DNA of 64,000 nucleotides from a virus, in the IMG/VR virus record IMGVR_UViG_3300023179_000039, positions 32,001-96,000 of that record; one strand, given 5' to 3'. The notes beneath the pieces were generated by a model, which made no database searches, was not told where the DNA came from, and saw only the letters and a list, made by a program, of their open reading frames with translations. The stretch's first letter is position 1; each line of letters begins with the position of its first letter. The position numbers were made by a program, and so were the translations under genes. Below are positions 5,924-12,493 of the stretch, in pieces.

Positions 5924-7042
5924 ATGAGTAAAGACCTTAGTAAGATATTTGCATCGTTAGACAAGCTAAACAGTGAAGCCTCGTTTTTAAACGAAAACGC
6001 TTTAAGTAAAGTAGATGAATGGTTTGATACTGGCTGCTATGCTCTCAATGCCATATTGGGTGGCAGCTGTCGTGGTGGCGGTGTCCCTAAGGGAAGAATT
6101 ACCGGCTTCTCTGGCCCTAGTCAGACAGGCAAGACTTTTATTGTTAACAAGATTCTTGCAACGGCGCAAAAGAAAGGCATCACGCCAGTTATTTTTGATA
6201 CAGAGATCGCTATCGACGAGAATAGTACAAAAGGTGTAGGTCTTGACCCCGAAAATGTAAAATATGTACCGGTAGATACAATTGATCAGTGCCGTAATCA
6301 GATCAGTGCATTACTTGATAGTATTATCGAAAACAATGCTAAAGGTAAGTTTATTATTAGTATTGACAGTTTAGGTAATCTTGCTTCACAGAAAGAGCTG
6401 GATGACGTAGCTAAGGATAAATCTGCTGCAGATATGGGTCTTCGTGCAAAGTCTTTAAAGAGTATGTTTCGTACTTTAACTTTTAAAGCTGCTAAGGCTG
6501 GTGTTACAATTCTGTTTACTAATCATACTTACGATGACCCGGCTGCAATGTTCCCTAGTCTTGTAAAGAATCAAGCCGGTGGCTCAGGACCTGTATATAT
6601 GGCTAGTATTCTTGTACAGCTTGCCAAGCGTCATGAGAAGGAAGGCGAAGGCGATTCAATGGATACAGAAGATAAAAAGCTTGCTGAAGCAAACAAATAC
6701 AGCGGTACAACACTTCGTGCATTAACTGTAAAGAATCGCTTTCTACCACCGTTTTTAGAGACAGAAATGTATCTTTCCTTTAAGACTGGATTGAACAAGT
6801 ATAGCGGTTTGCTTGGTATGGCTGCAGTGAGAGGTATCGTTGAACAAAATGGTGCAACCTATACTGTAGGTGTTACCAGTGGTAAGTATAAGAAGGGCGA
6901 TAAACTAGGATATGCAAAGACATTTGCAAAAGATCCCGCTTTCTACGAGGAATTCATTATCCCTGAACTCGACAAGCGCTTGGCTGAAGAATACAAGTAT
7001 AACGTAAATGAAGCGCAAGGCGAAGAAGAACCTCACGAGTAA
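5924..7042 (+). CDS. uvsX: RecA-like recombinase UvsX
   Basis: DTGCYALN, Walker A GPSQTGKT, FDTE, IDSLGNLAS, DMGLRAK, TNHTY. Confidence 0.93.
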   Translation: MSKDLSKIFASLDKLNSEASFLNENALSKVDEWFDTGCYALNAILGGSCRGGGVPKGRITGFSGPSQTGKTFIVNKILATAQKKGITPVIFDTEIAIDENSTKGVGLDPENVKYVPVDTIDQCRNQISALLDSIIENNAKGKFIISIDSLGNLASQKELDDVAKDKSAADMGLRAKSLKSMFRTLTFKAAKAGVTILFTNHTYDDPAAMFPSLVKNQAGGSGPVYMASILVQLAKRHEKEGEGDSMDTEDKKLAEANKYSGTTLRALTVKNRFLPPFLETEMYLSFKTGLNKYSGLLGMAAVRGIVEQNGATYTVGVTSGKYKKGDKLGYAKTFAKDPAFYEEFIIPELDKRLAEEYKYNVNEAQGEEEPHE

Positions 7043-7748
7043 AGCTGTAGTCCCCATTTCCGGAGGAATGGACAGTACTGTCCTACTACATTTAGCTGCT
7101 AGTAGGTATGATAAGATAATCACGGTTAACTATGATTACGGGCAGAAGCACCGTGATAAAGAAATAAATTGCGCTTCATTTCAGATTGAATCGGTTGATA
7201 TGCCGGTTGACAGTTTACACATAAAATTACCGTTTTTTAAGGATATATGTCAGGTTTCTTCACTTCTTAATAACAAGGTTGCAGTTGCTAAAGCCAAGGA
7301 TGTAATGGGCGATCCGCAGACGGTTAACTATGTTCCCTACCGTAACTTGATGTTACTTAGCATTTCACTAGCTATCGCTGAAAACTACGGTGCTAGCACG
7401 GTTTTTCATGGTGCAGCACAAGCCGATAGTGTTGCAGGATTCTGGGATGGAAGCGAGGAGTTTCTTGATCAAATTAATAAAGTATCAGCTCTTAACAGAA
7501 GAAACAAAATTGTTGTACAGGCGCCATTAATTGACAAATCTAAAGAAGAAATCATAAAATTAGGTGTAAAGCTTGGTGTAAATTTTAGCCAGACATGGAC
7601 TTGTTATGAGGGAGAAGAACAGGCCTGCGGTGAATGTACTGCGTGCTCTTTAAGAATAAAAGGCTTTATAGATGCAGGTTATGTAGACCCGTTAAACTAT
7701 AAAATCTCAATACCTTGGGAAAAATATAAGTGTAAAGAAATAATTTAA
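7008..7748 (+). CDS. queC: 7-cyano-7-deazaguanine synthase QueC-family protein
   Basis: PP-loop ISGGMDS, DYGQKH, VPYRN and zinc site TCY...CGECTAC. Start uncertain: ATG 7008 or near 7035. Confidence 0.9.
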   Translation: MKRKAKKNLTSKAVVPISGGMDSTVLLHLAASRYDKIITVNYDYGQKHRDKEINCASFQIESVDMPVDSLHIKLPFFKDICQVSSLLNNKVAVAKAKDVMGDPQTVNYVPYRNLMLLSISLAIAENYGASTVFHGAAQADSVAGFWDGSEEFLDQINKVSALNRRNKIVVQAPLIDKSKEEIIKLGVKLGVNFSQTWTCYEGEEQACGECTACSLRIKGFIDAGYVDPLNYKISIPWEKYKCKEII

Positions 7749-8293: not shown

Positions 8294-9193
8294 TTAGACA
8301 GTACTATATTTATCAAATTCATCCATTGGCCCGCTTCTACCAACATAGCCTAAATCTCTTGCAACAGATGTAGGTTCATCGGCTTCTGGATATTCATCTA
8401 TAGTTTCTACTTCTCCGGAGCCTTCACCTTCTTTTGCTTTTTCAGAAGCCGGTGAATAGCTGTTTTTATACTTCAACGAGTCAATAAAGTCTTGAACCAT
8501 CTCTTTGTCGTTTGCCATTTTTTCATCATATGCGCGCACAATAGCATCAACTACTTCTTTTCTTAGCTCAGGTGAATCATAAAGATCACCCTTTGCAACA
8601 GTAATTTCATCAGGAAGCTCTGCAAAAATAGGCATCCACTCTTTAATGAACCTTACATCATTTTTTACAAAAGAATTAGCAGCAGGTGTAGCAGGCGCAG
8701 TACTTGGTGTACCAGGAGCCACGACTTTCTTACCTTCAACGCCAGCTGTTACAGCTTGTTTAACTTGAGCAGGGCTAGCAGCAGCACCACCTTCAACATC
8801 AACACGTAAAACATTTAAAAGATTGTCGACAACACGAGCTGTGTATTTAGCTTCTGTACCACCTATTTTAAGCTCGTTCTTTATTAAATTTTCTAAATCA
8901 GTTCTAAACTTCATTTTAGAACCCGGGTAGTAAAGCTTATATTCTTTACCATCGATAGTATGAATAGCAGGTTTAAATAGCTTTGTTTGAATAACTTGCA
9001 GTAAACGGTTAGCAATTTCAGCTTTTGATTTGCCTTCTTTTGCTGCAGTTTTACCTATTCCATAACCTTTGCCAGGTGCTTTTTCAATATCACCAGTATA
9101 ACCTAAATCATCAGCATATATAGGCGCTTCACTAACTACCTGTTTTTTCTTTGAAATATATGCTTCGTATATAAATTGTACATCTTTGTTCAT
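8294..9193 (-). CDS. Hypothetical protein, candidate internal head protein
   Basis: 299 aa, preceded by late-type TAAATA; N-terminal FIYE motif. Confidence 0.7.
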   Translation of the reverse strand: MNKDVQFIYEAYISKKKQVVSEAPIYADDLGYTGDIEKAPGKGYGIGKTAAKEGKSKAEIANRLLQVIQTKLFKPAIHTIDGKEYKLYYPGSKMKFRTDLENLIKNELKIGGTEAKYTARVVDNLLNVLRVDVEGGAAASPAQVKQAVTAGVEGKKVVAPGTPSTAPATPAANSFVKNDVRFIKEWMPIFAELPDEITVAKGDLYDSPELRKEVVDAIVRAYDEKMANDKEMVQDFIDSLKYKNSYSPASEKAKEGEGSGEVETIDEYPEADEPTSVARDLGYVGRSGPMDEFDKYSTV

Positions 9194-9194
9194 C

Positions 9195-9222
9195 TTGAAT
9201 TATTTATTCTTTATAATATAAT
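9195..9222 (+). promoter_or_regulatory. Sigma70-type promoter for the amidotransferase operon
   Basis: TTGAAT-N16-TATAAT; followed by AGGAGGT (9227-9233) rather than a start codon. Confidence 0.65.
9201..9206 (-). promoter_or_regulatory. Late-type promoter TAAATA
   Basis: 7 nt before ATG 9193. Confidence 0.55.
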
Positions 9223-9242
9223 AATTAGGAGGTATATAATAT

Positions 9243-9926
9243 ATTTGCGGTATATTTGGTTCTAAAGACTTTACAACATATGTAAAGCTTTATAAGAGTA
9301 ATAAGAAAAGAGGCACCTTTTCTTACGGGGGTCTATTAATTGGACATAAGATACATGCCTTGTTAAAAACTCCAGGAACTGCAGAATTACATAAAAAGCT
9401 AGTTATCGAATACGGGAGAAAGAAGAGAAGTATTACTGATTTTGAAACGTTTTTAGGTCATACACAAGCACCTACATCAAGCCAGAGACGATTTACACCT
9501 GCCACTTCTCACCCTTTTCAATATAAAAACTGGATCATTGCACATAATGGCGTTTTAACAAATGATAGAGAGCTTAAGAAACTTATAAAAGATAAAAAAT
9601 CTTTTAATGTAGTTGACTCATCTGTTATTGCACCTTTAATAGATTTTAAATTTAGGGATATAGGGGATGAGGTAGCAGGTATATGTAGCGCGCTTTCTAT
9701 GCTTAAAGGTACCTTCGGGTTATGGATTTATGAGCAAAAGAGCGGAAACATATACCTTGCAAGATCCGGTAGTACGATTTATGCAAATTTTATCACTAAT
9801 GACTTCTCATCTCTTAAAGAAGAAGGCTTTGTTTCATTAGATGAAGGAGTTCTCTATCTCTTAACAAAAGAAGGCATTACATCTGTAGGCGTCTTTAAGA
9901 CAAACTCACCTTTTTTCTCACCATGA
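9243..9926 (+). CDS. Class II (Ntn) glutamine amidotransferase, apparent ATT start
   Basis: Frame extends upstream of track start 9360 to ATT-TGC-GGT-ATA-TTT-GGT (xCGIFG, catalytic Cys), bounded by in-frame TAA at 9237. Also RG, GHT, HPF and AHNG motifs. Confidence 0.85.
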   Translation: MCGIFGSKDFTTYVKLYKSNKKRGTFSYGGLLIGHKIHALLKTPGTAELHKKLVIEYGRKKRSITDFETFLGHTQAPTSSQRRFTPATSHPFQYKNWIIAHNGVLTNDRELKKLIKDKKSFNVVDSSVIAPLIDFKFRDIGDEVAGICSALSMLKGTFGLWIYEQKSGNIYLARSGSTIYANFITNDFSSLKEEGFVSLDEGVLYLLTKEGITSVGVFKTNSPFFSP

Positions 9927-10597
9927 AGACGGCATTCTATACATGTACAAGGCGTTCAATAATTGATGAGACGTTTGCTTTCAAGTCACTAAGAAGACTT
10001 TGTGATAAAATAGAATTTTTTTACGATTGTAATAACAAAGAGGGCCTCAGCAAACGTTACAACGATATTCTAAAAGAACATGCAAACTCATTTGATAATA
10101 TAGTATTCTTGCACGACGATGTTTATGTCGATGATCTTTATGTTATTGAAAAGCTAGAAAAAGCGCACACCGTTTTTGATATTGTTGGTCTTGCTGGAGG
10201 AGTTAACCCAACCGTTAAGACACCTGCACTATGGCATTTAATGTGTGGGGGGTTCGGTAGCGGTAACTTGAGAGGCGCAGTCGCGCACCCGACAGGTAAC
10301 AAAGCAAATGATCAGATATTTGTAACTAGCTTTGGCCCTACACCTAGCCGAGTAGCTATTTTAGACGGTTTATTTTTAAGTGTTAATACAAAATGCTACT
10401 TAGATAAAAACTGGAAATTTAATGAAAACTATACATTTCATCATTATGATATAGCTAGCAGTCTAGATGCAAATAAAGCTCAGCTTAAGCTAGGGGTAGT
10501 GCCTATTTGGTGTGTACACAGTTCTCCTGGTCTTTTAAATATAGAAGACAAATTATTCTTAAATAGCCAACAAAAGTTTTTAGAAGAATATAGTTAG
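9923..10597 (+). CDS. Glycosyltransferase, GT-A (GT2-like)
   Basis: GLSKRYN, VFLHDDV (DxD-like), VGLAG, LDGLFL, FHHYD. ATGA-coupled to the amidotransferase. Confidence 0.8.
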   Translation: MKTAFYTCTRRSIIDETFAFKSLRRLCDKIEFFYDCNNKEGLSKRYNDILKEHANSFDNIVFLHDDVYVDDLYVIEKLEKAHTVFDIVGLAGGVNPTVKTPALWHLMCGGFGSGNLRGAVAHPTGNKANDQIFVTSFGPTPSRVAILDGLFLSVNTKCYLDKNWKFNENYTFHHYDIASSLDANKAQLKLGVVPIWCVHSSPGLLNIEDKLFLNSQQKFLEEYS

Positions 10598-11987: not shown

Positions 11988-12284
11988 TTGTTGACTGTGA
12001 AAGGTTACGATCCTTCTGAACTGATAACTGATTATGAACAAACACATTTGTTTTTATCGTTTTGTTCGTTTGTAACATTAACAAATACTAAAAAACTTAA
12101 TCTAGCTAATGTTTTTATATGTTTACTTAAACATAAAGAGTTTAGAGACGTCTTTAAAGTATATTGTGATTTAAAAAATGATTTTAACGCCGTTAAATTT
12201 TTCTTGCAATTTGATTCAAGTTTGTATAAAAGTAAATACATTATGAAATTTTTAAACAGTAACAAAAAGTTTTTATTAGTATGA
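11988..12284 (+). CDS. Hypothetical protein
   Basis: Fills the gap, ATGA-coupled to the next gene; start uncertain. Confidence 0.6.
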   Translation: MLTVKGYDPSELITDYEQTHLFLSFCSFVTLTNTKKLNLANVFICLLKHKEFRDVFKVYCDLKNDFNAVKFFLQFDSSLYKSKYIMKFLNSNKKFLLV

Positions 12285-12493
12285 GTAAAGTAATTAACGT
12301 TTCCGTTTCTTTAGACAAAAAGAAATGCACAGATAAAGCTTATTTTGATAAAGCTTATAAAAAATTTGCAAGAGAAGTTTTAAGAGCAGGTATTTCTGAA
12401 GATCTACGTTTTAAGCGTTATTATCTTAAGCCGAGTGCGCTTAGAAAGCTTAAAAAGCAGTTCAGCAGACAAAAGTGGAAATTTTATAATTGA
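12281..12493 (+). CDS. rpsU: Ribosomal protein bS21 homologue
   Basis: 70-aa basic protein. FDKAYKKFAREVLRAGISEDLRFKRYYLKPSALRKLKK fits the bS21 pattern (A.++F.+...+.G...+.R.+.YY.KPS..R+.K). Confidence 0.75.
   Translation: MSKVINVSVSLDKKKCTDKAYFDKAYKKFAREVLRAGISEDLRFKRYYLKPSALRKLKKQFSRQKWKFYN

What the first reader, a model, noticed from the sequence alone, without database searches (positions are those of the whole stretch)
9227..9260. Amidotransferase appears to start at ATT behind the strongest Shine-Dalgarno in the window
Seen: AGGAGGT-N9-ATT-TGC-GGT-ATA-TTT-GGT, with an in-frame TAA at 9237 that excludes any upstream ATG. Known: Ntn amidotransferases need Cys at residue 2, and AUU starts (E. 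coli infC) respond to IF3 levels. Inference: this is the one sigma70-promoter gene of twelve that breaks the leaderless rule, and it may be a translational sensor of IF3 or anti-SD availability, possibly tied to phage bS21.
Basis: partly seen in the sequence, partly recalled or inferred. Interest (0 to 1): 0.7.

Follow-up and report, generated by a model that had tools for sequence, protein, structure and literature searches.

The report
Phage amidotransferase gene starting at ATT
A lake phage's glutamine-amidotransferase gene really begins at the rare start codon ATT, behind the genome's only strong ribosome-binding site. Its relatives use either this layout or a plain ATG at the very start of the message, so the family is a natural experiment in how translation-start signals balance each other.

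Summary
AGGAGGT lies at 9227-9233, followed by 9 nt, ATT (9243) and TGC (Cys). An in-frame TAA lies two codons upstream. The ORF 9243-9926 is an intact class-II (Ntn) glutamine amidotransferase.

ATT is not a sequencing error:
- All 45 ATT-start homologues, from independent assemblies, keep ATT plus a GGAGG-type SD.
- Within the window's own clade, codons 2-33 have dN/dS 0.08 at dS 1.17.
- Four-fold sites changed 7-12 times on the tree. The third base of ATT never changed.

This is the only functional-looking SD in the 110-kb phage record (-11.5 kcal/mol; the other 59 starts average -0.7). The other early genes are leaderless. Across the family, ATT goes with a strong SD, and ATG goes with no leader or with a weak or badly spaced SD.

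The proposed IF3 or bS21 "sensor" role is untested. The comparative data give it no support, because bS21 occurs in ATG lineages too.

In some relatives the ATT+SD leader sits next to a GIY-YIG homing endonuclease inserted exactly at the start codon. The layout may therefore partly be a mobile-element legacy. The window itself has no such gene.

The scan found the same thing earlier on other genomes. RefSeq already annotates an ATT-Cys amidotransferase start in phiEco32.

The parts
9195..9200 (+). -35 hexamer TTGAAT of the early sigma70-like promoter. It overlaps the upstream region of the divergent gene.
   Evidence: 10 of 12 match, 16-nt spacer. Conserved in 70+ related loci.
9201..9206 (-). 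TAAATA late-promoter-like core of the divergent gene 8294-9193, read on the minus strand. It explains why the spacer TATTTATTC is so conserved.
   Evidence: The same motif lies 4-7 nt before 19 other starts in the window.
9217..9222 (+). -10 hexamer TATAAT.
9229..9229 (+). Predicted transcription start, the 7th base after the -10, as in the 11 leaderless early genes. It falls on a G of the SD, so the leader is only about 14 nt and begins with the SD. This is inferred, not measured.
   Evidence: Geometry. In 32 of 32 type-A loci the 7th base after TATAAT is the first or second G of GGAGG.
9227..9233 (+). Shine-Dalgarno AGGAGGT, 9 nt before the start codon.
   Evidence: GGAGG-type SD in 45 of 45 ATT homologues.
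9237..9239 (+). In-frame TAA that closes the frame two codons before ATT.
9243..9245 (+). ATT initiation codon.
9246..9248 (+). TGC, the catalytic Cys. It becomes residue 1 after Met removal.
   Evidence: Invariant in the alignment.
9243..9926 (+). Stand-alone class-II (Ntn) glutamine amidotransferase, 227 aa.
   Evidence: PF13522 and PF13537 above their cut-offs. The GlmS glutaminase domain 1xff is the closest solved structure. dN/dS 0.08 for codons 2-33.
9923..10597 (+). Downstream gene, Glyco_tranf_2_5-like. Its start overlaps the amidotransferase stop (ATGA), so it is probably translationally coupled.
   Evidence: Adjacent in all related loci.
8294..9193 (-). Divergent 299-aa gene of unknown function. 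Its ATG abuts the -35 hexamer.
   Evidence: Homologues occupy the same place in 48 loci of both start types.
7008..7748 (+). QueC (7-cyano-7-deazaguanine synthase), the likely functional partner.
   Evidence: PF06508 E 3.5e-56 and TIGR00364. QueC lies directly upstream of the amidotransferase in the distant locus L014.
12281..12493 (+). Phage bS21 gene. This is context only; no specific link to the ATT start was found.
   Evidence: PF01165 36.8 bits, TIGR00030, distribution.

Best explanation
The gene at 9243-9926 encodes a functional stand-alone class-II glutamine amidotransferase, and its translation starts at AUU.

How it most likely works:
- An early sigma70-type promoter produces an mRNA whose roughly 14-nt leader begins with the Shine-Dalgarno sequence.
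- SD/anti-SD pairing holds the 30S subunit so that initiator tRNA can read the near-cognate AUU 8-10 nt downstream.
- Methionine is then removed, which exposes the catalytic Cys.

The strong SD and the weak start codon form a co-adapted pair. Together they replace the phage's default of an AUG at the 5' end of a leaderless mRNA, and they most likely give a modest level of translation similar to the default. A dedicated sensor function is less likely.

Shown here: ATT is real and under purifying selection, the SD is unique in the genome, and ATT and SD co-vary across the family.

Inferred: the transcription start, SD dependence, and the expression level. Also inferred is that the enzyme works with QueC, QueD and FolE in 7-deazaguanine DNA modification.
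For: Sequence anatomy:
- Motifs, coordinates and the in-frame stop are as described.

Enzyme:
- Pfam GATase_6 and GATase_7 score above their cut-offs.
- C2, H101-N102-G103 and D125 are invariant. The HNG and Asp motifs align with those of GlmS 1xff.

ATT is not an error:
- All 32 members of the window's clade keep ATT plus (G)GAGG at 8-10 nt, as do 7 metagenome contigs, some of which are the same assemblies.
- Database gene calls for this clade are truncated to 174-216 aa because gene callers miss ATT.
- Codons 2-33 have dN/dS 0.08 at dS 1.17.
- Neighbouring four-fold Gly sites changed at least 7-12 times on the tree. The third base of ATT changed 0 times.

The SD is unique:
- It is the only GGAGG placed before a start in the 110-kb record.
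- Its duplex energy is -11.5 kcal/mol against a mean of -0.7 for the other starts.

Covariation:
- ATT loci (n=45) have SD duplex energies of -13.6 to -8.8 kcal/mol.
- ATG loci (n=55) average -1.0, and most have the ATG 6-11 nt after the -10 hexamer.
- At least 6-7 state changes are needed on the tree.
- Five of 5 tree-independent pairs go the same way.
- Seven of 7 hand-picked sister contrasts have the stronger SD with ATT.

Pathway context:
- The order UvsX-QueC-(variable gene)-Gat-GT-DnaB is conserved in all loci.
- QueD and FolE are present in the genome.
Against: - There are no expression data of any kind.
- The independent-pairs test cannot reach significance with 5 pairs (p 0.06).
- The contrasts are not fully independent. 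The SD+ATT leader of some relatives is clearly one homologous module that sits in three tree positions next to a homing endonuclease. Part of the covariation may therefore be linkage in a mobile cassette rather than repeated selection.
- If the transcript starts at 9229, the SD is shortened to GAGGU.
- The host is unknown, so whether its ribosomes use SD pairing is inferred only from the conservation of GGAGG.
Confidence: 0.78

Rival explanations
1. Legacy of, or immunity to, a homing endonuclease. The SD+ATT leader was brought to this start codon by a GIY-YIG homing-endonuclease cassette that inserts between the promoter and the first codon. Such an insertion destroys leaderless expression, so a leader with an SD is needed. 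The ATG-to-ATT change alters the conserved target sequence. After loss of the endonuclease gene, the window's clade keeps the leader as a working, cleavage-resistant allele. This is an account of origin, and it is compatible with the best explanation of how the start works today.
For: - In L073, L075, L076, L077, L087 and L088 a 244-aa protein lies divergently 43 nt from ATT. It matches phrog_314 'homing endonuclease' at E 7e-35, with sub-threshold GIY-YIG, NUMOD1 and NUMOD3 Pfam hits.
- Compared with ATG sisters, a cassette of about 745 nt replaces only the last 12-30 nt before the start codon.
- L071 keeps the leader and ATT but has lost about 615 nt of the endonuclease gene.
- The module (GGAGGGTAAC-N3-ATT) occurs in three tree positions. 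A very similar one (AGGGTAAC-N3-ATT) occurs in a Gat only distantly related to the others.
- Leaders without an endonuclease in L089 and L093 (GGAGGTTAACG...) resemble it.
- Earlier scan reports on other genomes reached the same reading.
Against: - The window's genome has no such endonuclease.
- None of the 21 non-redundant type-A loci examined has one. The same 299-aa neighbour sits 47-49 nt upstream, as in ATG loci.
- The type-A leader is only 12-14 nt longer than the leaderless form and keeps the original promoter intact. A simple deletion of a 745-nt cassette does not predict that.
- Similarity between type-A and cassette leaders outside the SD and ATT is 5-6 of 8 bases in AT-rich sequence, which is not decisive.
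- The endonuclease copies are as diverged (about 70% nt) as the flanking genes, so there is no sign of recent spread.
Confidence: 0.3
2. Regulatory sensor. AUU behind a strong SD makes translation depend on relaxed start-codon proofreading, meaning low IF3 activity, altered bS21 or anti-SD state, or excess initiator tRNA. Leaderless AUG mRNAs are also antagonised by IF3 and favoured by excess initiator tRNA. The SD+AUU layout would therefore keep the gene in the same regulatory class as the rest of the phage's leaderless programme.
For: - A well-spaced strong SD with ATG was not seen in about 100 homologues.
- ATT is strictly kept, with no ATA, ATC or ATG, while silent sites are saturated.
- The review PMC9031893 states that IF3 inhibits leaderless translation and that extra fMet-tRNA strongly enhances it.
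- The genome encodes bS21.
- It also encodes an initiator-like tRNA(CAU) with a 1:72 mismatch and only two of the three anticodon-stem G-C pairs.
Against: - There is no functional data.
- bS21 occurs in ATG lineages too.
- The product is a metabolic enzyme with no evident feedback on translation, unlike infC.
- L090 and L091 carry ATG with a 5'-terminal GAGGAG, and L231-L234 carry ATG behind the same uORF and a weaker SD. The rule therefore looks like a graded trade-off in strength rather than a switch.
- The IF3 facts come from E. coli, and the host is unknown.
Confidence: 0.13
3. Artefact or dead gene. ATT is a miscalled or recently mutated ATG, or the real protein starts at the downstream TTG (9360) or at an upstream codon followed by propeptide cleavage.
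For: - Automatic gene calls start at TTG 9360 or similar positions.
- Some Ntn enzymes are made with a propeptide (own knowledge, for example B. subtilis PurF).
Against: - ATT is identical in 45 independent assemblies that differ at silent sites.
- Codons 2-33, upstream of the TTG, have dN/dS 0.08.
- A start at 9360 would delete the invariant Cys.
- TAA at 9237 closes the frame two codons upstream of ATT.
Confidence: 0.02

Closest known systems
E. coli infC (IF3) and pcnB, the classic AUU-initiated bacterial genes (own knowledge; IF3 discrimination reviewed in PMC9723500, listed)
   Same: A conserved AUU start codon read by initiator tRNA, preceded by an SD. Expression is expected to be low and sensitive to IF3 proofreading.
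   Different: The product here is an amidotransferase, so there is no autoregulatory loop. The leader is only about 14 nt and probably begins with the SD. The gene alternates in evolution with a leaderless AUG form. IF3 dependence was not tested.
phiEco32 gene phi32_83 (GlmS-like amidotransferase), annotated in RefSeq NC_010324 from ATT-TGT
   Same: A phage class-II amidotransferase whose annotated CDS begins with ATT directly before the catalytic Cys codon.
   Different: It is a long fused 676-aa enzyme in an E. coli podovirus that otherwise uses SDs. Its leader has a weaker SD (AGGTGGA) and a GC hairpin. There is no detectable sequence relationship to this protein at E 1e-5.
Gat-QueC of phage 9g and Crenarchaeota, the dG+/archaeosine amidotransferase (PMC6884629)
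   Same: A class-II glutamine amidotransferase module associated with QueC and with FolE and QueD in a phage.
   Different: Here Gat and QueC are separate genes with two other genes between them. Gat does not match the Gat-QueC PHROGs at E 1e-3. No DpdA/TGT was detected in the half-complete record. The product of the pathway is unknown.
Leaderless mRNAs such as lambda cI (PMC9031893, PMC10491246)
   Same: The rest of this phage's promoter-proximal genes, and the ATG forms of this very gene in relatives, have the start codon at or within a few bases of the predicted 5' end.
   Different: This gene is the exception, with a short leader, an SD and a non-AUG codon.
E. coli mRNAs with a 5'-terminal AUG plus a downstream SD-led gene (PMC4965119)
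   Same: Relatives L071, L073-L077, L087, L088, L074 and L111 have a near-leaderless mini-ORF of 3-11 codons. It contains the SD and stops 4-5 nt before ATT.
   Different: The window's own leader has no such upstream ORF.

Membership tests
Class-II (Ntn) glutamine amidotransferase | Domain profile match above the curated threshold | tested here: met
   PF13522 scores 36.5 bits (cut-off 27) and PF13537 scores 29.2 bits (cut-off 25). The GlmS glutaminase domain is the best solved relative, E 1e-11.
Class-II (Ntn) glutamine amidotransferase | Catalytic Cys as the first residue after the initiator Met | tested here: met
   TGC directly follows ATT. C2 is invariant in the 17-sequence alignment and in all loci.
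Class-II (Ntn) glutamine amidotransferase | Oxyanion-hole Asn-Gly and glutamine-binding Asp | tested here: met
   H101-N102-G103 and D125 are invariant. They align with the HNG and ETDTEV motifs of GlmS 1xff.
Class-II (Ntn) glutamine amidotransferase | Glutaminase activity coupled to an acceptor enzyme | not testable with these tools
   The partner is inferred only from gene order: QueC, or the overlapping GT-like gene.
AUU-initiated, IF3-controlled genes (infC type) | AUU start conserved among orthologues | tested here: met
   Thirty-two of 32 in the window's clade and 45 of 45 ATT-state loci keep it. There were 0 changes on the tree against 7-12 at silent sites.
AUU-initiated, IF3-controlled genes (infC type) | Expression responds to IF3 level | not testable with these tools
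   No expression data.
AUU-initiated, IF3-controlled genes (infC type) | The product feeds back on initiation (autoregulation) | tested here: not met
   The product is an amidotransferase.
Gat-QueC (dG+ synthase) | Gat domain fused to QueC | tested here: not met
   Gat (9243-9926) and QueC (7008-7748) are separate genes with two minus-strand genes between them.
Gat-QueC (dG+ synthase) | Co-occurrence with preQ0 genes and a DNA transglycosylase (DpdA) | tested here: inconclusive
   QueC, QueD and FolE are present. There is no Pfam TGT hit, but the record is about 51% complete and phage DpdA proteins are divergent. QueE was not searched.
Leaderless mRNA | Start codon at or within a few nt of the 5' end | tested here: not met
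   There are 20 nt between the -10 hexamer and ATT, against 6 nt in the 11 leaderless early genes. The transcription start is predicted, not measured.
Homing-endonuclease-linked start-codon cassette | Endonuclease gene adjacent to the ATT start | tested here: not met
   No homologue in the whole record. The neighbour is the ordinary 299-aa gene. The feature is met in relatives L073-L077 and L087-L088.

The most novel reading that the evidence does not exclude
Leaderless AUG and 5'-terminal-SD plus AUU are interchangeable because both are initiation modes that normal IF3 proofreading disfavours. On this reading the phage reprogrammes initiation to favour such starts, using its own initiator-like tRNA(CAU), which has a weakened G-C signature in the anticodon stem, and perhaps its bS21. 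The amidotransferase mRNA would then be switched on only in the reprogrammed cell.
Probability: 0.12. Interest if true: 0.85.

Novelty: new variant of a known kind. Interest (0 to 1): 0.5.

Why it matters
- **Annotation.** Public gene calls for this whole clade are truncated by 11-68 residues and lose the catalytic Cys. A widespread phage enzyme is therefore systematically mis-annotated.
- **Translation biology.** About 100 natural alleles of one gene show a clean trade-off: a strong SD with AUU, or no leader with AUG. The genome is otherwise free of SDs. This gives ready-made constructs for testing how start-codon identity, SD strength, 5'-end proximity and IF3 proofreading combine.
- **Evolution.** The same start codon is also an insertion site for a homing endonuclease. 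This links mobile-element biology to the evolution of initiation signals.

Tried and rejected
- **Sequencing error or pseudogene.** Rejected on conservation and dN/dS.
- **Start at TTG 9360, or upstream with a propeptide.** Rejected.
- **Riboswitch or structured leader.** No Rfam match at E up to 1. The fold of 9228-9300 is unremarkable (z -1.6).
- **RegB-type nuclease as a reason for a lone GGAG.** No PF10715 hit, but the control genomes did not ring either and the record is half complete, so this is uninformative.
- **Cys codon forcing U at +4 as a handicap for leaderless initiation.** Weak support only. Twenty-six of 31 leaderless starts have a purine at +4, but 3 of 12 early ones have T.
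- **Host from bS21.** The genome scan returned only Gemmatimonadota hits, selected by the peptide patterns, at 42-61% identity. That is implausible for a 33% G+C phage, so I did not use it.
- **Cultured relatives.** No DNA match. gp32 is only about 30% identical to cyanophage and pelagiphage proteins.
- **Extended promoter motif elsewhere in the window.** Not enriched.
- **Specific link to bS21.** Not found.

Full report
**Observation.** The sequence is exactly as described. AGGAGGT lies at 9227-9233, followed by nine bases, ATT at 9243-9245 and then TGC GGT ATA TTT GGT. TAA at 9237-9239 is in frame, so nothing upstream can start this frame. The first canonical start is TTG at 9360. From ATT the frame runs 227 codons to 9926.

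**What the gene is.** The product matches the class-II glutamine amidotransferase domains PF13522 and PF13537 above their thresholds. Its closest solved relative is the glutaminase domain of GlmS. In an alignment with 16 homologues, C2, H101-N102-G103 and D125 are invariant. The last two motifs align with the HNG oxyanion hole and the glutamine-binding Asp of GlmS. Enzymes of this class use the N-terminal Cys as nucleophile, so translation must begin at the codon just before TGC.

The window is part of a 109,659-bp IMG/VR virus record. It belongs to a distant T4-like phage of about 33% G+C with no cultured close relative. The gene order UvsX-QueC-(variable minus-strand gene)-Gat-GT-like-DnaB-p98-bS21 is kept in all related loci. 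QueD and FolE lie elsewhere in the record. A role with QueC in 7-deazaguanine DNA modification, like the fused Gat-QueC of phage 9g (PMC6884629), is therefore likely. It remains inferred, because the two genes are separate and no DpdA was detected.

**ATT is real and selected.** Seventy-eight IMG/VR loci with homologues were fetched and their starts read.
- All 32 members of the window's clade (67-81% amino-acid identity, SH-aLRT 98) read ATT-TGY.
- In all of them (G)GAGG lies 8-10 nt upstream, behind the same TTGAAW-N16-TATAAT promoter.
- Seven metagenome contigs read separately show the same layout. Some are the same assemblies as the IMG/VR records.
- In this clade codons 2-33, which lie upstream of any canonical start, have dN/dS 0.08 at dS 1.17.
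- Four-fold Gly sites nearby changed at least 7-12 times on the tree, whereas the third base of ATT changed 0 times.
- Public gene calls for the clade are cut to 174-216 residues, because gene callers do not consider ATT.

**The SD is unique in this genome.** AGGAGG is no more frequent in the window than chance predicts. In the whole record, however, only this copy lies 4-12 nt before a plausible intergenic start. Its predicted duplex with the anti-SD is -11.5 kcal/mol. The other 59 starts average -0.7 (sd 2.4).

Eleven early genes show the rigid geometry TTGnnn-N16-hexamer-N6-start. Nineteen genes have a TAAATA late-type motif 4-7 nt before the start. Promoter-proximal genes therefore look leaderless, as earlier notes of this scan also said. 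Applying the early geometry to this promoter puts the transcription start on a G of the SD, at about 9229. The same holds in 32 of 32 clade members. The mRNA would thus have a 13-14-nt leader that begins with the SD. This is inference.

The conserved spacer TATTTATTC is explained by a TAAATA late-type motif for the divergent 299-aa gene on the other strand.

**Family-wide pattern.** Adding more distant homologues gave 100 loci.
- ATT loci (n=45) have SD duplex energies from -13.6 to -8.8 kcal/mol.
- ATG loci (n=55) average -1.0. Most have ATG 6-11 nt after the -10 hexamer, which is leaderless or nearly so.
- The few leadered ATG forms have a distant or weaker SD: L090-L092, and L231-L234 compared with their 88%-identical ATT sisters L229 and L230.
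- The tree needs at least 6-7 changes of start codon.
- Five of 5 tree-independent pairs change SD in the same direction. This cannot reach p<0.05 (p 0.06).
- Seven of 7 sister contrasts that I picked from the tree have the stronger SD with ATT.

A well-spaced strong SD with ATG was never seen. The simplest reading is a trade-off that holds initiation strength within bounds.

**A complication: a homing endonuclease.** Following a lead from earlier reports of this scan, I examined the relatives whose leader differs.
- In L073, L075, L076, L077, L087 and L088 a 244-aa GIY-YIG homing endonuclease lies divergently 43 nt from ATT. It matches phrog_314 at E 7e-35, with sub-threshold Pfam GIY-YIG and NUMOD hits.
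- Against ATG sisters, the cassette of about 745 nt replaces only the last 12-30 nt before the start codon.
- The cassette carries a promoter, a near-leaderless mini-ORF that contains the SD and stops 4 nt before ATT, and the ATT itself.
- L071 keeps this leader but has lost most of the endonuclease gene.
- A similar mini-ORF leader serves a very distant Gat.

The ATT+SD state can therefore be installed and moved by a selfish element, and the transitions on the tree are not all independent. The window itself has no such gene anywhere in the record. All type-A loci keep the ordinary neighbour and the intact promoter. Whether the type-A leader descends from such a cassette is open.

**The sensor idea.** In E. 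coli, IF3 disfavours both non-canonical starts and leaderless mRNAs, and extra initiator tRNA favours leaderless translation (PMC9031893). Replacing a leaderless AUG by SD+AUU could therefore keep the gene in the same regulatory class. This is attractive but untested.

The proposed tie to bS21 has no comparative support. bS21 is found in ATG relatives (G003 strongly, G002 weakly) as well as in an ATT relative (G005).

Outside the window the record encodes a tRNA(CAU) with a C1:C72 mismatch, an acceptor stem like that of E. coli tRNAfMet, and only two of the three anticodon-stem G-C pairs. A type-A relative encodes another tRNA(CAU) with a U1:U72 mismatch. These are leads for the more novel reading, not evidence for it.

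**Comparison with what is known.** AUU starts are classic in infC and pcnB (own knowledge). RefSeq already annotates an ATT-Cys start for the GlmS-like gene phi32_83 of phiEco32, which I checked in the record. My literature searches found no description of the alternation between leaderless AUG and SD+AUU in this family. This scan has reported the same phenomenon on several other genomes of the family.

**Verdict.** The finding is real, well conserved and mechanistically interpretable. It is a new variant of a known kind and of moderate interest.

Noticed in passing
G000 109492-109564, minus strand (outside the window, about 13.5 kb beyond its end); locus L286:193-265: The phage encodes a tRNA(CAU) with a C1:C72 mismatch and an acceptor stem CGCGGG like that of E. 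coli tRNAfMet. Its anticodon stem has G29-C41, G30-C40 and U31.G39, so only two of the three initiator G-C pairs. It looks initiator-like. A type-A relative (L287:1028-1104) has a tRNA(CAU) with a U1:U72 mismatch and the T loop TTCAAAT. This could matter for a leaderless or non-AUG programme.
   Followed up: partly
L073:1723-2457 (minus); also L075, L076, L077, L087, L088; remnant in L071: A GIY-YIG homing endonuclease (phrog_314, E 7e-35) is inserted exactly at the start codon of the amidotransferase gene in some relatives. It comes with its own promoter, a mini-ORF, the SD and ATT. L071 shows a degraded copy.
   Followed up: yes
window 9195-9222 (+) and 9201-9206 (-): The early promoter of the amidotransferase gene and a TAAATA late-type motif of the divergent 299-aa gene overlap back to back in a 49-nt intergenic space. 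This block is conserved across loci whose Gat proteins are only 50-80% identical.
   Followed up: partly
window 9923-9926: The downstream Glyco_tranf_2_5-like gene starts with ATGA overlapping the amidotransferase stop. It has no SD, which suggests translational coupling. Whatever controls the ATT start would then also control this gene.
   Followed up: no
window 2906, 15161, 16600, 17974, 53613: Five of the eleven apparently leaderless early genes start with GTG. That would be unusual for E. coli-type leaderless initiation and hints at a host or phage machinery that tolerates non-AUG codons at the 5' end.
   Followed up: no
window 12281-12493: The bS21 gene lies in the replication cluster, stop/start-coupled to its neighbours. 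Homologues are present in both ATT and ATG relatives.
   Followed up: partly
Database proteins P0002-P0064: About 40 clusters (at 90% identity) of this amidotransferase clade are deposited as N-terminally truncated proteins of 159-216 aa that lack the catalytic Cys. One (P0004) is over-extended upstream.
   Followed up: yes
L042 = record G005: IMG/VR classes this 157-kb relative as a 'provirus', although the family looks like lytic T4-like phages. This is possibly a classification artefact.
   Followed up: no
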